Source: a virus
Virus record (IMG/VR): IMGVR_UViG_3300035670_000058
Coordinates: 50,681 to 114,680 of that record
Length of the DNA: 64,000 bases
Strand: one strand, 5' to 3'
The position numbers were made by a program, and so were the translations under genes. The notes below the pieces were generated by a model. It was not told the origin of the DNA. It searched no databases and saw only the letters and a program-made list of their open reading frames with translations. Of the stretch, positions 5,231 through 53,739 are shown in pieces; the first letter of the stretch is position 1, and the number at the start of each line of letters is the position of its first letter.

Positions 5231-5788
5231 ATGCTTGTAACTAAAAAGAAGTTACGGATACTCGATGTAGATATTGAGTCAAGACCTCTTTCATTTAGGG
5301 GCTTCCGTCCAACCGCAGAGATAACTGCAATGGCATGGTGCTTTGCAGATGACCTGTCATCTATGGAAGTCTACCTGTTAGGTAGAGATAACCCAGAGGA
5401 TATGCTCTGGGCATTTAGAAGTGCCTATAAGGAAGCAGATATACTGACGGGACATAACGTTAAATCATTTGATCTACCCAACATTAATGGGGCCATGCTG
5501 GAGTATGATATCCCCCAACTAGGTTCCAAGTTGGTGCAAGATACGTACACCGATCTACGGAAGCGTGGGGATATTCCAGCATCACAAGAGTATCTTGTTG
5601 ATCTCTTTGGCATTGGTGCAAAGGTTCACATGAGTCAACACTCATGGCGTGACGCCAATAGGCTCACTCCAAGAGGCTTGGAGAGGACACGGGAACGTGT
5701 AACCGGCGACGTATACGATCACATGCGCCTCAGAGTTGAGATGATTAAGCGAGGGCTTTTGCGCCCGCCTAAGATTTGGAAGCCTTAA
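5231..5788 (+). CDS. RNase H-like / DnaQ-family 3'-5' exonuclease
   Basis: LDVDIES, GHNVKSFDLP and GDV acidic motifs. Confidence 0.75.
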   Translation: MLVTKKKLRILDVDIESRPLSFRGFRPTAEITAMAWCFADDLSSMEVYLLGRDNPEDMLWAFRSAYKEADILTGHNVKSFDLPNINGAMLEYDIPQLGSKLVQDTYTDLRKRGDIPASQEYLVDLFGIGAKVHMSQHSWRDANRLTPRGLERTRERVTGDVYDHMRLRVEMIKRGLLRPPKIWKP

Positions 5789-5790
5789 GT

Positions 5791-6144
5791 ATGGATACAA
5801 TCACACTAGTATTCTTTACCCTTCTGGGTGGGGGATTGCTCATTGCTTTTATTATAGAAGTGTTTGAGCTTAAAGGGCAGAAACAAGCGTTTGAAACTTG
5901 GTCTGCGCTTATTAATGATTACATCGAAAGCTATGAAGAGTTAAAGAAAGCAATCAATACCAACGCTAATCTTCTAAGAGTTGCCGGCGAAACAATCAAT
6001 GATCATGATCGTGTCTTACGAGTGATGTCAATTGTTGTTGATACACACTCAGAGATACTAAAACTTAACCCGCAGCTACGAGATCAACTTGAGCATCCCC
6101 CTGTCGATGGATTTATTGTGACAGTAGGGGAAGACGTTGAGTAA
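5791..6144 (+). CDS. membrane-anchored coiled-coil protein
   Basis: N-terminal hydrophobic helix. Confidence 0.55.
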   Translation: MDTITLVFFTLLGGGLLIAFIIEVFELKGQKQAFETWSALINDYIESYEELKKAINTNANLLRVAGETINDHDRVLRVMSIVVDTHSEILKLNPQLRDQLEHPPVDGFIVTVGEDVE

Positions 6145-45855: not shown

Positions 45856-47418
45856 ATGGCTAGATTGAATTACACGCGAAAGGCTGTTACCTCGCAGCGA
45901 CTCGCGGAAGAGACTACGACCAACTATGAAGGTGCTGTGGCGTTCAAGTTGACAGACCACCAGCAACTGATTGAACAGGTCTTAGGTGCGTTTTGGAACG
46001 AGAATCTGTTCTACACCAAGGGCAAGGATCAGACCGACTCTATTGTCGGATTGATCAAGTCCGTGGCGACAGTCGATCCAAAGTTTCCATTGCAGTTAGC
46101 AGCATATGCTAGAAACGTTCTCTATATGCGCACAACTCCACAGGTATTGCTTGTGGAGGCTTCGCGGATCGCTGCGTGCAAACCATTTGTGGTTGAGTAC
46201 ACGCCTAAGATTGTGAAGCGGGCGGATGAATTGGCCGAAGTTGTTGCGTATTACAGCGCACACTATGGTACTGATCCGAAAAAGCCGGGAAAGACACACG
46301 TCAATTTCCCTAACTCACTAAAGAAGGGACTTGCCAAAGCATTTACCAACTTTGATGAGTATCAACTGAACAAGTATGACTCTTCCAAGTCATCTGTCAC
46401 TCTGGGTCAGGTTGCACAACTTGTGCATCCTCCTATTGGCAAGGCACTCTATGAGTATCTTACCAAGGGTGTTGTTGATCCTGAGGCTATGCCAAAGACA
46501 GCCGCTCTCAAGGCTCTCTTGGCAAAGGATAAGATTGATGACGAGGCTTTGGAGTTAATTGCAAAGAGTGGAATCACTTGGGAGTCAATGATTTCCAAGT
46601 TTGGTTCTACCAAGGAAACTTGGGAGTTGGTTGCACCGAATATGGGCTACATGGCCCTATTGCGAAACCTACGAAACTTTGAGCAGAAGGGTGTTGATCT
46701 TGATCCAATCTTGAAGCGTATTGCTGATGAGAATGAGGTCAAGAGAAGCAAGCAGTTGCCGTTCCGGTTCTACTCTGCGTACCGTGAGGTTACTGAGCAG
46801 AAGATTCAGAGAGCAATTGCTCAGGCGCTTGAGAAGTCAATCTCCAACGTTCGACTTGACGGTCGGACTGCGGTTATGGTAGACTTGTCTGCGAGCATGA
46901 ATTCTCCGCTATCTGCACATTCAAAGGTATCATATCGGGATATCGCGTGCGTTCTTGGTGCAGTTGTTGTCAAGAAGTCTAGCAACTCAATTGCTATTGG
47001 CTTCGGGGACAGTGCCAAGACTGCTCGTATCAATCCTGATGATACGATGATGACAAACATGGAGAAAATCCAGAATCTGAATGTTGGTCACTCAACCAAT
47101 GCCTATCTGGCATTTGATGAGTTGGGCAGCAAAGAAGTTGATCGGGTAATTCTCATCTCCGATATGCAGTGCTATACTACAAATTGGGGCTGGGGGCTGT
47201 CTAGCGATAGCACTGTAAAGGATCGCTGGGCTAGATACGTCAAAATGTATCCGAATGCAAAGTTGTACTCGCTAGACGTTAGTGCCTACGGTACAGCACA
47301 GACACCATCTGATGCGAAGAACACCGTTCTTCTCAACGGTTGGTCAGACAAGATCATCGATCTCATCAATGTCTATGACAAGCGTGATGCGATGGTCGAA
47401 GAGATTCGTAAGTTTTAA
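45856..47418 (+). CDS. TROVE-domain Ro60/Rsr RNA-binding protein with C-terminal vWA
   Basis: NYEGAVAF, YAR...MRT, RADE, FDEYQLNKY, TWE, MALLRNLRN, SKQLPFRF, DLSASM MIDAS, ISDMQ, GWSD. Confidence 0.92.
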   Translation: MARLNYTRKAVTSQRLAEETTTNYEGAVAFKLTDHQQLIEQVLGAFWNENLFYTKGKDQTDSIVGLIKSVATVDPKFPLQLAAYARNVLYMRTTPQVLLVEASRIAACKPFVVEYTPKIVKRADELAEVVAYYSAHYGTDPKKPGKTHVNFPNSLKKGLAKAFTNFDEYQLNKYDSSKSSVTLGQVAQLVHPPIGKALYEYLTKGVVDPEAMPKTAALKALLAKDKIDDEALELIAKSGITWESMISKFGSTKETWELVAPNMGYMALLRNLRNFEQKGVDLDPILKRIADENEVKRSKQLPFRFYSAYREVTEQKIQRAIAQALEKSISNVRLDGRTAVMVDLSASMNSPLSAHSKVSYRDIACVLGAVVVKKSSNSIAIGFGDSAKTARINPDDTMMTNMEKIQNLNVGHSTNAYLAFDELGSKEVDRVILISDMQCYTTNWGWGLSSDSTVKDRWARYVKMYPNAKLYSLDVSAYGTAQTPSDAKNTVLLNGWSDKIIDLINVYDKRDAMVEEIRKF

Positions 47419-47420
47419 TA

Positions 47421-47496
47421 GATTAGGTAGTGTAAGCGACGGTTACTTCTTCCTGCAACTAAGACCCGTTCCGTTGCTGCTTTTAATCTCCTAATC
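47421..47496 (+). ncRNA. Y-RNA-like element 1 (minimal; anticodon-like hairpin cargo)
   Basis: GATTAGG/CCTAATC stem, TAGTGT/TAATCT internal loop, TACTTC. Confidence 0.65.
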
Positions 47497-47500
47497 ATAT

Positions 47501-47573
47501 GGCCCCATCGTCTAATGGCTTAGGATATGACTCTTTCAAGGTAATGATCGGAGTTCGATTCTCCGTGGGGCTA
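47501..47573 (+). tRNA. tRNA-Glu(TTC), no encoded CCA
   Basis: GGCCCCA/TGGGGCT, loop CTTTCAA, GTTCGATTC. Confidence 0.8.
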
Positions 47574-47593
47574 CAGTTTTTATTTGGAGATTT

Positions 47594-47893
47594 ATGGAAT
47601 GGAAAGAGCATTATGCTCTATATAAAGAAGGTTATCTAGAACGAAATAAAAAGAAGCGAGAAGCATCTAATCGCCTAATTAGGGAAGCAAAAAATAAGCC
47701 CTGCGCCGATTGCGGGGTAAAGTATCCCTACTATGTTATGGATTTAGATCATATTGAGGGGCAAAAGACGGGAACTCTCGCTCATATGAAATCGTACTCT
47801 GAGAAAAGAGTACAAGAAGAAATAAATAAATGCGAGGCAGTTTGCTCAAACTGTCATCGAATACGAACATTTAATCGTAATAGCGTAGTGTGA
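47594..47893 (+). CDS. HNH endonuclease
   Basis: PCADCG...MDLDH...KCEAVCSNCHRIRT. Confidence 0.85.
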   Translation: MEWKEHYALYKEGYLERNKKKREASNRLIREAKNKPCADCGVKYPYYVMDLDHIEGQKTGTLAHMKSYSEKRVQEEINKCEAVCSNCHRIRTFNRNSVV

Positions 47894-48050
47894 GAATCGG
47901 GTACTTCTACACCTTTGTTTTGTTTTGAACACACAACTCACCAGCATGGATATGTCAGCACGGGAGGATGGCCCTTGTGACTCTTAGGAAAGGACTAAGT
48001 GACGAATCGGAAGTAAGACGATAAAGCCCCCGATCCAGTTAATCTCGCTA
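47881..48050 (+). ncRNA. Y-RNA-like element 2 (non-tRNA cargo of about 120 nt)
   Basis: TAGCG/CGCTA stem, TAGTGT/TAATCT, ATCGGG/CCCGAT, TACTTC. Confidence 0.6.
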
Positions 48051-48064
48051 GATATTAGATATTA

Positions 48065-48204
48065 TATAGGATAGTGTAGGATACAGTTACTTCGCTTGGG
48101 ACGACAAGACGGAGGTTCGAATCCTTCTTCCCCAACCAAATCGATGGGGAATGGTGCAATGGCAGCACATGTAAAATTTCTGTGCCCGTTCTAATCTTCC
48201 TATA
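48065..48204 (+). ncRNA. Y-RNA-like element 3 (YrlA-like; permuted tRNA-Pro cargo)
   Basis: TATAGGA/TCCTATA stem, TAGTGT/TAATCT, TACTTC, T-arm and CCA preceding the D-arm. Confidence 0.75.
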
Positions 48205-48228
48205 ACTGTTAATATATATGGATAGTCA

Positions 48229-48433
48229 TCGCTTATCCGGTAGTAACCATTACATAATGCAGTAAATATATAAGTAGACATTACCGACTTCACCACCGGC
48301 CCTCTACTTTGACATAGAGGAATTGGTTATTCTCCTGCTTGGTTACTACCGGATGCGCGACGGCGCAGAGTCCGTAATGCTGATGAATTGATGTTCCGCG
48401 ATAGCGTCCGGTAAATCTAAATTGAGGTAAGCG
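48229..48433 (+). ncRNA. unclassified structured RNA candidate
   Basis: perfect 15-bp stem 48235-48249/48340-48354 and inner hairpins. Confidence 0.45.
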
Positions 48434-48441
48434 GTAGTTTT

Positions 48442-48574
48442 TAAGTGTAGTGTCTCGTAACGGCTACTTCGTAAATCAATGGATAGATTATTGTACTCTT
48501 AATACAACTGTTGTCGGTTCGAATCCGACCGAATATCGCCGCAAGGCTAACCCGTTACAAACTAATCTCACTTA
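48442..48574 (+). ncRNA. Y-RNA-like element 4 (tRNA-Lys(CTT)-like cargo lacking a full acceptor end)
   Basis: TAAGTG/CACTTA stem, TAGTGT/TAATCT, GTAACGG/CCGTTAC, D, anticodon and T arms in normal order. Confidence 0.7.
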
Positions 48575-48579
48575 TCTAT

Positions 48580-48656
48580 TCCCGGTTGGTGTAATTGGTA
48601 AGCATTCTTGTCTGTTAAACAAGCGGCTGAAGGTTCGAATCCTTCACCGGGAGCCA
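48580..48656 (+). tRNA. tRNA-Asn(GTT)
   Basis: TCCCGGT/ACCGGGA, loop CTGTTAA, CCA. Confidence 0.9.
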
Positions 48657-48673
48657 GCACAGAAGGTGGGCGC

Positions 48674-48862
48674 ATGGCAAACTTTAAGAGGAAGCGAACC
48701 AAGCATATCACAGAAAGTCAGTGCGGACGTAAGCATTGCAAGTATGATCTAGTCCACACTCCTACCGAGAATGGCCGGAACAGATATCTTCCAATGTACT
48801 GGAAGAAACTAGGGGGCCACAGACCTTGGAGATACATACATAAGAATGTAGACAATCTTTGA
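48674..48862 (+). CDS. small basic protein
   Basis: MANFKRKR...C....C. Confidence 0.5.
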   Translation: MANFKRKRTKHITESQCGRKHCKYDLVHTPTENGRNRYLPMYWKKLGGHRPWRYIHKNVDNL

Positions 48863-53277: not shown

Positions 53278-53352
53278 GCCCGATTCGTATAACGGTTAGT
53301 ATAGAAGTTTTACATACTTTTGGCGGGGGTTCGACTCCCTCATCGGGCACCA
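53278..53352 (+). tRNA. tRNA-Val(TAC)
   Basis: GCCCGAT/ATCGGGC, loop TTTACAT, CCA. Confidence 0.85.
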
Positions 53353-53367
53353 GCACTAGGAGGCTAT

Positions 53368-53577
53368 ATGAGGAAACGGATAAGGAGTTGGATAACAAGT
53401 TTGATGACTAGAGCGCCCAGAAGATGGAGAAAGACCCCGTTAGTAAAGCGGGAGATAAGTGCGACTATAGTCTCAATAACTGATCCCCAGCCCCTAGAGA
53501 ATTATAAGATAGCAACTGCGGTTCTTCCTGATTATGAGCATCTAGAGTTATTAGTTAATTCTGATTCCCAGAAGTAA
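53368..53577 (+). CDS. hypothetical protein
   Basis: AGGAGG SD before ATG at 53368. Confidence 0.5.
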   Translation: MRKRIRSWITSLMTRAPRRWRKTPLVKREISATIVSITDPQPLENYKIATAVLPDYEHLELLVNSDSQK

Positions 53578-53584
53578 ATATCGT

Positions 53585-53661
53585 GGCCCCTGAGCCATCC
53601 GGTCGTAGGCATCTGTCTTATAAACAGATATAGGTAGGTTCGACTCCTACAGGGGCTACCA
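53585..53661 (+). tRNA. tRNA-Ile(TAT)
   Basis: GGCCCCT/AGGGGCT, ATCTGT/ACAGAT around CTTATAA, CCA. Confidence 0.8.
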
Positions 53662-53664
53662 TCT

Positions 53665-53739
53665 GCCGACGTAACTCAATGGTAGAGTAGCTGTTTTGTA
53701 AACAGCAGGTTGGAGGTTCAAGTCCTCTCGTCGGCCCCA
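53665..53739 (+). tRNA. tRNA-Thr(TGT)
   Basis: GCCGACG/CGTCGGC, loop TTTGTAA, CCA. Confidence 0.9.

What the first reader, a model, noticed from the sequence alone, without database searches (positions are those of the whole stretch)
45856..48574. Phage Ro60/TROVE gene followed by four Y-RNA-like elements sharing one scaffold but carrying different cargoes
Seen: directly after the TROVE gene are four elements (47421-47496, 47881-48050, 48065-48204, 48442-48574) with identical architecture. Each has an outer stem whose sequence differs but pairs perfectly (GATTAGG/CCTAATC, TAGCG/CGCTA, TATAGGA/TCCTATA, TAAGTG/CACTTA), an invariant internal loop TAGTGT opposite TAATCT, a second variable stem, then invariant TACTTC. 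This covariation is strong evidence of a conserved RNA fold. The cargo differs each time: a short hairpin, a ~120-nt non-tRNA domain, a permuted tRNA-Pro, and a tRNA-Lys body. Known: bacterial Ro60 (Rsr) binds Y RNAs through a bulged terminal stem, and YrlA-type Y RNAs carry a tRNA-like domain. Inference: a modular phage RNP system in which one Ro60 is programmed with interchangeable RNA effector domains, for example decoys for host anticodon nucleases or tethers for tRNA repair or decay.
Basis: partly seen in the sequence, partly recalled or inferred. Interest (0 to 1): 0.9.

Follow-up and report, generated by a model that had tools for sequence, protein, structure and literature searches.

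The report
Phage Ro60 with four Y RNAs
An uncultured 115-kb phage encodes a Ro60 ring protein followed by four small RNAs that share one Ro60-type "handle" but carry different bodies: a divergent, many-RNA version of the known bacterial and phage Ro60/Y-RNA particle, not a new kind of system.

Summary
All four elements lie at the stated coordinates, and the composite 5' motif occurs 4 times against 0.02 expected. A covariance model of the shared scaffold finds 56 copies in 16 loci. Their 16 base pairs are 96% paired (61% in shuffles), and 15 pairs show compensatory changes. In six complete phage genomes (112-280 kb) every hit lies within 1.2 kb of the TROVE/Ro60 gene, on its strand, and nowhere else.

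The scaffold has the geometry of the Ro60-binding module of YrlA-type Y RNAs (Rfam RF02553; Chen 2014): terminal stem, asymmetric internal loop, second stem, then the conserved YUAY. Its 5' motif is a diverged form of GNCGAA(N)G, with intermediates in Caulobacter phage CcrColossus and Arthrobacter phage Atuin.

- Element 1 is a minimal, YrlB-like RNA.
- Element 2 carries a conserved ~120-nt unknown domain.
- Element 3 is a YrlA-type tRNA mimic; the "tRNA-Pro" reading is not conserved.
- Element 4 is a normal-order tRNA-Lys-like body with an intact anticodon arm.

RF02553 itself does not hit the window.

Ro60 binding and any decoy or repair role are untested. This scan has noted similar handle-tagged RNA arrays beside phage Ro60 genes on other DNA. 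Verdict: a new variant of a known kind, of moderate interest.

The parts
45856..47418 (+). Ro60/TROVE gene (520 aa; TROVE + vWA domain with a DxSxS MIDAS motif)
   Evidence: Pfam TROVE 5e-34 and vWA_Ro60 1.2e-7; PHROG 850 1e-55; PDB 9KOP/9L5Y phiLo Ro60 4e-35; ORF
47421..47496 (+). Y RNA 1: minimal form (handle plus an open loop of about 28 nt), YrlB-like. It starts 2 nt after the Ro60 stop codon and ends 4 nt before tRNA-Glu
   Evidence: Sequence; model R2 61.2 bits (it was part of the training set); homologous short elements in 8 other loci
47501..47574 (+). tRNA-Glu(UUC), a genuine tRNA interleaved with the Y RNAs
   Evidence: ARAGORN; Rfam tRNA 49.9 bits, full length
47594..47893 (+). HNH endonuclease ORF (99 aa). 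Its stop codon lies inside the 5' motif of Y RNA 2. It is absent at this position in relative L001
   Evidence: PHROG HNH 6e-24; Pfam HNH weak; L001 sequence
47881..48050 (+). Y RNA 2: handle plus a conserved non-tRNA domain of about 120 nt made of several hairpins
   Evidence: R2 34.3 bits, E 1e-6 genome-wide, not in the training set; homologues in L001 and L008 with a covarying hairpin
48065..48204 (+). Y RNA 3: YrlA-type tRNA mimic in the order V hairpin, T arm (48111-48127), closed acceptor-like stem-loop (48128-48151), D arm (48154-48168)
   Evidence: R2 56.5 bits; order as described for YrlA
48205..48441 (+). Unclassified conserved structured RNA without the handle, kept directly after the YrlA-type element in four phages. 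Its relation to the system is unknown
   Evidence: Alignment A10; fold -66 kcal/mol, z -2.0; no Rfam hit
48442..48574 (+). Y RNA 4: handle joined to a normal-order tRNA-Lys(CUU)-like body with D arm 48474-48489, anticodon arm 48491-48507 and T arm 48513-48529. The acceptor stem has only 4 bp and there is no CCA
   Evidence: Rfam tRNA 46.7 bits covering model positions 4-67 only; ARAGORN; R2 37.3 bits, not in the training set; homologues in alignment A8
48580..48656 (+). tRNA-Asn(GUU), a genuine tRNA starting 5 nt after Y RNA 4
   Evidence: ARAGORN; Rfam tRNA 63.9 bits

Best explanation
The locus is a phage Ro60/Y-RNA operon. The Ro60 gene, four Y RNAs and tRNAs are probably transcribed together and cut apart by the host tRNA-processing enzymes (inferred from spacers of 2-5 nt). 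Each Y RNA closes its ends into the same handle: terminal stem, one bulged base, two conserved pairs, asymmetric internal loop, second stem, then the conserved UA-containing hexamer. This handle is the counterpart of the Ro60-binding module of YrlA and YrlB, so the phage Ro60 ring most likely binds all four RNAs there (inferred). The distal body of each RNA then determines what the particle touches. The bodies are a minimal loop, an unknown 120-nt domain, a sealed YrlA-type tRNA mimic, and an anticodon-bearing tRNA-Lys look-alike. By analogy with Deinococcus, Salmonella and phage phiLo, the particles would tether or gate host exoribonucleases such as PNPase, or tRNA-binding enzymes, and so reshape RNA decay or blunt an RNA-directed host defence during infection (inferred).
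For: - Handle structure: 16 pairs over 56 elements are 95.9% paired, against 61.3% in shuffles and 41-47% in slid controls; 15 of 16 pairs show double-sided changes.
- Association with Ro60: in six complete genomes every R2 hit is on the TROVE strand within 1.2 kb of the gene, with no hit elsewhere in 112-280 kb. Two TROVE-less phage records have no hit.
- Independent detection: elements 2 and 4 of the window, and all hits in CcrColossus, Atuin, BRock, L019, L022, L026 and L034, were not in the training set.
- Link to known Y RNAs: the RF02553 consensus has the same layout, namely a stem, a 5-nt/8-nt internal loop, a 7-bp stem, then CUA. CcrColossus elements are hit both by RF02553 (42.3 bits, E 9e-8) and by R2. 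The 5' motif forms a graded series from R. etli through CcrColossus and Atuin to this phage.
- The conserved hexamer starts at nt 24 of element 1. YrlA has YUAY at nt 22-25 and a conserved UA kink.
- Element 3 has the V, T, acceptor-like and D order of YrlA.
- The nearest solved protein, phiLo Ro60, binds phage Y-like RNAs and PNPase.
Against: - No transcript, end-mapping or binding data exist for this uncultured phage.
- The published Ro60-contact motif GNCGAA(N)G is absent in literal form.
- RF02553 gives no hit on the window even at E<=10.
- R2 does not hit R. etli, phiLo, Gordonia phage Neville or HGTV-1 loci, so homology of the handle rests on geometry and intermediates.
- No clear promoter or terminator was found around the array.
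- Related phages share ancestry, so co-occurrence within the clade is not many independent events. The distant phages (Caulobacter, Arthrobacter, Streptomyces) are the independent ones.
Confidence: 0.8

Rival explanations
1. The handle is a Ro60-independent processing or stability clamp for non-coding RNAs of the phage tRNA operon, bound by another protein or only protecting the ends from exonucleases. On this view it sits beside the Ro60 gene only because both live in the tRNA cluster.
For: The elements are packed between tRNAs with spacers of 2-5 nt. Phage TROVE genes generally sit in tRNA clusters. No binding data exist.
Against: This genome has other tRNA genes (19941, 53278-53739) and Atuin has dozens. 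Even so, hits occur only next to the TROVE gene. The handle geometry equals that of the YrlA Ro60-binding module.
Confidence: 0.1
2. Elements 3 and 4 are unusual tRNA genes (a permuted tRNA-Pro, and a tRNA-Lys with leader-trailer pairing). They would mature into decoding tRNAs after removal of the handle.
For: Element 4 has a canonical 7-nt anticodon loop.
Against: The joined anticodon stem, the 7-nt loop and the CCA of element 3 are not conserved in L009, L008 or L001. Element 4 has only 4 acceptor pairs, because positions 1-3 and 70-72 do not pair, and its anticodon changes to UCA in L008. The genome encodes no RNA ligase. The same handle also carries non-tRNA bodies.
Confidence: 0.05
3. The elements are decaying remnants of duplicated or dimeric tRNA genes with no present function.
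For: Element 3 keeps an ACCA and an anticodon-arm remnant, which fits a descent from a tRNA dimer (model cited).
Against: Both stems are kept by compensatory changes across phages whose Ro60 proteins are only 26-75% identical, and three motifs are invariant. Decay would erase these features.
Confidence: 0.03

Closest known systems
Bacterial Rsr(Ro60)-YrlA/YrlB Y RNAs (Rfam RF02553; Chen et al. 2014, PMC4201824; Wang et al. 2018, 10.1101/312249)
   Same: The RNAs lie on the same strand within about 1 kb of Ro60. The ends pair into a stem, an asymmetric internal loop and a second stem, followed by a conserved YUAY/UA. One RNA has a sealed tRNA mimic in V-T-acceptor-D order. Smaller partner RNAs lack the mimic. 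Several tandem RNAs share one handle, as in R. etli, which has five.
   Different: The 5' motif is UAGUGUAG-like instead of GNCGAA(N)G. There is a bulged base plus two pairs. RF02553 does not score the window. Element 4 attaches a normal-order tRNA body with an anticodon arm. Element 2 has a 120-nt non-tRNA body. There is no rtcBA repair operon.
Thermus phage phiLo Ro60 with Yrl1/Yrl2 (PMC12135203; PDB 9KOP, 9L5Y)
   Same: It is the closest solved protein (E 4e-35). It is a phage Ro60 with adjacent Y-like RNAs. Those RNAs bind the protein and host PNPase and attenuate PNPase activity.
   Different: phiLo has two RNAs upstream of the gene with a CGAA-type bulge. My handle model does not hit the phiLo locus. 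Here there are four RNAs downstream, with tRNA-like bodies.
Deinococcus radiodurans Yrn1 / RYPER (Chen et al. 2013, 2014)
   Same: Yrn1 has D-like and T-like parts in normal tRNA order with an anticodon-like arm between them, as in element 4. The Y RNA tethers Ro60 to PNPase.
   Different: Yrn1 has a 6-nt loop, only a partial D arm and a different handle sequence. Element 4 is a much closer tRNA copy, with a 7-nt loop and a Lys anticodon.
Ro60-like gp130 of coliphage Bas63 (PhageMaP preprint, PMC11482910)
   Same: It is a phage Ro60-like gene directly next to a tRNA array suspected to contain Y RNAs. Its deletion sensitises the phage to the ppl defence.
   Different: Its protein is too distant to appear in my tblastn list. 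Its RNAs are undefined, and no link to this clade was tested.

Membership tests
YrlA/YrlB-type Y RNA (RF02553; Chen 2014) | Encoded within about 4 kb of a Ro60/TROVE gene on the same strand | tested here: met
   The four elements lie 2-1156 nt downstream of the gene on the + strand. The same holds in five other complete genomes.
YrlA/YrlB-type Y RNA (RF02553; Chen 2014) | The 5' and 3' ends form a stem, an asymmetric internal loop and a second stem (the Ro60-binding module) | tested here: met
   Covariation. The layout matches the RF02553 consensus structure printed.
YrlA/YrlB-type Y RNA (RF02553; Chen 2014) | GNCGAA(N0-1)G motif on the 5' strand | tested here: not met
   All four elements carry UAGUGU followed by a variable dinucleotide (AA, GA, AG, CU). 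Intermediate forms occur in CcrColossus and Atuin.
YrlA/YrlB-type Y RNA (RF02553; Chen 2014) | Conserved YUAY / UA after the second stem | tested here: met
   UUAC, GUAC, UUAC and CUAC occur within the invariant hexamer. The position matches YrlA nt 22-25.
YrlA/YrlB-type Y RNA (RF02553; Chen 2014) | At least one RNA per genome has a tRNA-like domain in T arm, closed acceptor-like stem, D arm order | tested here: met
   Element 3.
YrlA/YrlB-type Y RNA (RF02553; Chen 2014) | Scores with the curated Rfam covariance model | tested here: not met
   No RF02553 hit at E<=10 on 47300-48700. Positive control: R. etli at 97.9 bits. CcrColossus is sub-threshold at 42.3 bits.
YrlA/YrlB-type Y RNA (RF02553; Chen 2014) | Bound by the Ro60 protein in vivo | not testable with these tools
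   This needs RIP or EMSA.
Ro60 / TROVE protein | TROVE (HEAT-repeat ring) domain plus a C-terminal vWA domain with a MIDAS motif | tested here: met
   The DLSAS motif is read from the sequence.
Genuine decoding tRNA (elements 3 and 4) | 7-bp acceptor stem with free ends, and a cloverleaf conserved among homologues | tested here: not met
   For element 4 the tRNA model aligns over positions 4-67 only. The joined anticodon stem of element 3 is not conserved.

The most novel reading that the evidence does not exclude
The array is a counter-defence kit. One phage Ro60 ring is loaded with different Y RNAs, and the anticodon-bearing tRNA-Lys look-alike (Lys-type anticodon in three of four related phages) acts as a Ro60-tethered decoy or sensor for host tRNA-Lys-directed nucleases. 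The other bodies would recruit or block other RNA enzymes.
Probability: 0.15. Interest if true: 0.75.

Novelty: new variant of a known kind. Interest (0 to 1): 0.45.

Why it matters
Bacterial Y RNAs are known, but their effectors, especially for the tRNA-like module, are still unknown. Phage Ro60 function has only begun to be studied.

This clade offers natural "module swaps" on a constant handle: 4-7 RNAs per phage. They include a form that displays a complete anticodon arm and a non-tRNA domain. That makes two questions directly testable: what each body recruits, and which handle positions Ro60 reads.

The finding also flags an annotation trap. tRNA finders call Y-RNA bodies as tRNA-Lys, tRNA-SeC or tRNA-Gln.

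Tried and rejected
- Rfam at the gathering threshold and at E<=10 gave no Y RNA family on the window. I first took this as uninformative. After a lead to RF02553 I ran a positive control, so it now counts as a failed strict-membership test.
- blastn of the locus against GenBank phages found only tRNA-Glu matches.
- MAFFT alignments of whole elements mis-registered the 3' handle. I therefore seeded a model from three clean short elements and iterated.
- The Ro60 alignment scanned against 185,579 prokaryote genomes found nothing.
- The DNA polymerase was used to look for close relatives lacking Ro60, as a negative control. It found only the same relatives plus two distant TROVE-less records, so that control is weak.
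- The supplementary tables of Chen 2014 and two reviews are not held. I could not check which phage Y RNAs were already listed.
- The promoter and terminator scan was uninformative.
- The mobile-element reading was rejected because the terminal inverted repeats differ in every copy.
- The protein-coding reading was rejected because the elements hold no conserved ORF.
Full report
**Observation**

The window is the right-hand 64 kb of a complete 114,680-bp virus record with terminal repeats. A 520-aa ORF at 45856-47418 is a Ro60/TROVE protein. It matches Pfam TROVE (5e-34) plus the Ro60 vWA domain and a PHROG RNA-binding family (1e-55). Its nearest solved relative is the Ro60 of Thermus phage phiLo (4e-35).

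The stems and the three invariant hexamers are as quoted. The composite 5' pattern occurs four times in the window against 0.02 expected, and nowhere else in the genome.

**Relatives and structure**

The Ro60 protein led to related loci in IMG/VR and in metagenomes, at 75% down to 26% identity. A regex scan found 39 non-redundant elements, all on the Ro60 strand.

- A covariance model seeded from three short elements was rebuilt from its own hits.
- The rebuilt model finds 56 elements in 16 loci.
- On that alignment the 16 pairs of the handle are 95.9% paired, against 61.3% after shuffling and 41-47% with slid partners. Fifteen pairs show changes on both sides (earlier set).
- The alignment is fitted to the model, which favours the structure. 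The margin is large, and the outer stems differ in almost every copy.

The 'internal loop' resolves into three parts. First comes a one-base bulge. Next come two conserved pairs: A-U in 46 elements, G-C in 5 (CcrColossus and L019), and an invariant G-C. Last comes an asymmetric loop.

**Association with Ro60**

In six complete genomes every model hit lies within 1.2 kb of the TROVE gene, on its strand, and there is no hit elsewhere. The six are this phage, two relatives of about 120 kb, Caulobacter phage CcrColossus (280 kb), Arthrobacter phage Atuin (194 kb) and Streptomyces phage BRock (113 kb).

Elements 2 and 4 of the window, and all hits in the distant phages, were not used to build the model. 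Two distant phage records without a TROVE gene have no hit, but they are incomplete, so this is a weak control.

**What it is**

Phage Ro60 genes with adjacent Y RNAs are already published:
- 22 phages, including CcrColossus, in Chen et al. 2014.
- phiLo Yrl1 and Yrl2, which bind the phage Ro60 and host PNPase.

Chen et al. define YrlA-type RNAs by three features: a 5' GNCGAA(N)G motif, a conserved YUAY at nt 22-25 that opens the variable region, and a tRNA-like domain in the order V, T, acceptor-like stem-loop, D. The crystal structure confirms a conserved UA kink.

As a positive control I read the Rhizobium etli plasmid operon rtcR-rsr-rtcB. Five tandem RNAs there share one handle. RF02553 scores them at 97.9, 63.4, 32.8 and 21.1 bits, and the fifth, which lacks a tRNA-like body, gets no hit. 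The RF02553 consensus is a stem, a 5-nt/8-nt internal loop, a 7-bp stem, then CUA.

The window's handle has the same layout, and its hexamer starts at nt 24. Its 5' motif differs from the published one. CcrColossus and Atuin carry intermediate forms on both strands of the loop. The CcrColossus elements are hit both by RF02553 (42.3 bits, E 9e-8) and by my model. I conclude that the handle is a diverged Ro60-binding module.

Strict membership fails on two tests: the literal motif is absent, and RF02553 gives no hit at E<=10. So I file it as a variant rather than a plain member.

**The four bodies**

- **Element 1** is a minimal RNA with an open loop, like YrlB. Homologues follow the Ro60 stop codon in most relatives.
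- **Element 2** carries about 120 nt that are highly conserved in two relatives. One hairpin shows a compensatory change, and the invariant hexamer pairs with a downstream complement. It matches no Rfam family.
- **Element 3** is the YrlA-type mimic. The window copy can be read as a permuted tRNA-Pro with an encoded ACCA, but in L009, L008 and L001 the loop, the joined stem and the CCA are not kept. The hairpin is therefore the V arm. The resemblance fits the proposed origin of YrlA from a tRNA dimer, not a working tRNA.
- **Element 4** is a tRNA-Lys-like body in normal order with a canonical anticodon loop. Only four acceptor pairs run into the handle. Homologues read CUU (L001), a UUU-like loop (L009) and UCA (L008). 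This orientation recalls Deinococcus Yrn1, but on the YrlA-type handle.

Relatives carry 4-7 such RNAs per genome.

**Mechanism**

- *Shown:* the conserved fold, the linkage to Ro60, and the likeness to the YrlA module.
- *Inferred:* co-transcription with the tRNAs and release by tRNA-processing enzymes (spacers of 2-5 nt); binding of Ro60 at the handle; and recruitment or gating of host RNA enzymes by the bodies, as for PNPase in Deinococcus, Salmonella and phiLo. A counter-defence role is possible, since a Ro60-like gene of phage Bas63 counters the ppl system.

The genome has no RtcB, Rnl2-type ligase or CCA-adding enzyme. A phage-encoded repair pathway is therefore not evident.

**Novelty**

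This is a divergent, multi-RNA instance of a known system, with two body types not described for YrlA-type handles. Notes from this scan report comparable handle-tagged arrays beside phage Ro60 genes on other DNA. I did not test those.

Noticed in passing
window 48205-48441 (conserved core about 48225-48370); L001 6300-6432; L009 3477-3636; L008 6286-6391: A structured RNA without the Y handle always follows the YrlA-type element. It has conserved 5' and 3' arms forming a long helix around a variable insert, with one compensatory change in L009. It matches no Rfam family.
   Followed up: partly
window 47594-47893: An HNH endonuclease ORF sits between tRNA-Glu and Y RNA 2, and its stop codon lies inside the Y RNA 5' motif. 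Relative L001 has another Y RNA (5784-5927) at this position instead, so the ORF looks like a homing-endonuclease insertion.
   Followed up: partly
window 48674-48862; L001 6812-7000: A conserved basic 62-aa ORF rich in Cys and His lies between tRNA-Asn and tRNA-Gln and overlaps the start of tRNA-Gln. It has no PHROG hit.
   Followed up: partly
L029 2129-2301 (Caulobacter phage CcrColossus record JX100810.1): The annotated tRNA-Gln (locus 2137-2204) lies inside one of six handle-bearing elements upstream of the TROVE gene. It scores below the Rfam tRNA threshold (24.7 bits), and RF02553 matches the overlapping 2172-2268 at 30.5 bits. It is probably a Y RNA body mis-called as a tRNA. ARAGORN likewise calls tRNA-Lys in this window and in L001, and tRNA-SeC in L008, inside Y RNAs.
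   Followed up: partly
L038 4533-5216 (Rhizobium etli plasmid pRetIE4771c): Five tandem Y RNAs with one handle lie between rsr and rtcB. Only one passes the RF02553 gathering score.
   Followed up: partly
L001 6395-6425; L002 5566-5595: A short conserved C/G-rich hairpin-like word precedes a Y RNA in two relatives. I did not see it in the window.
   Followed up: no
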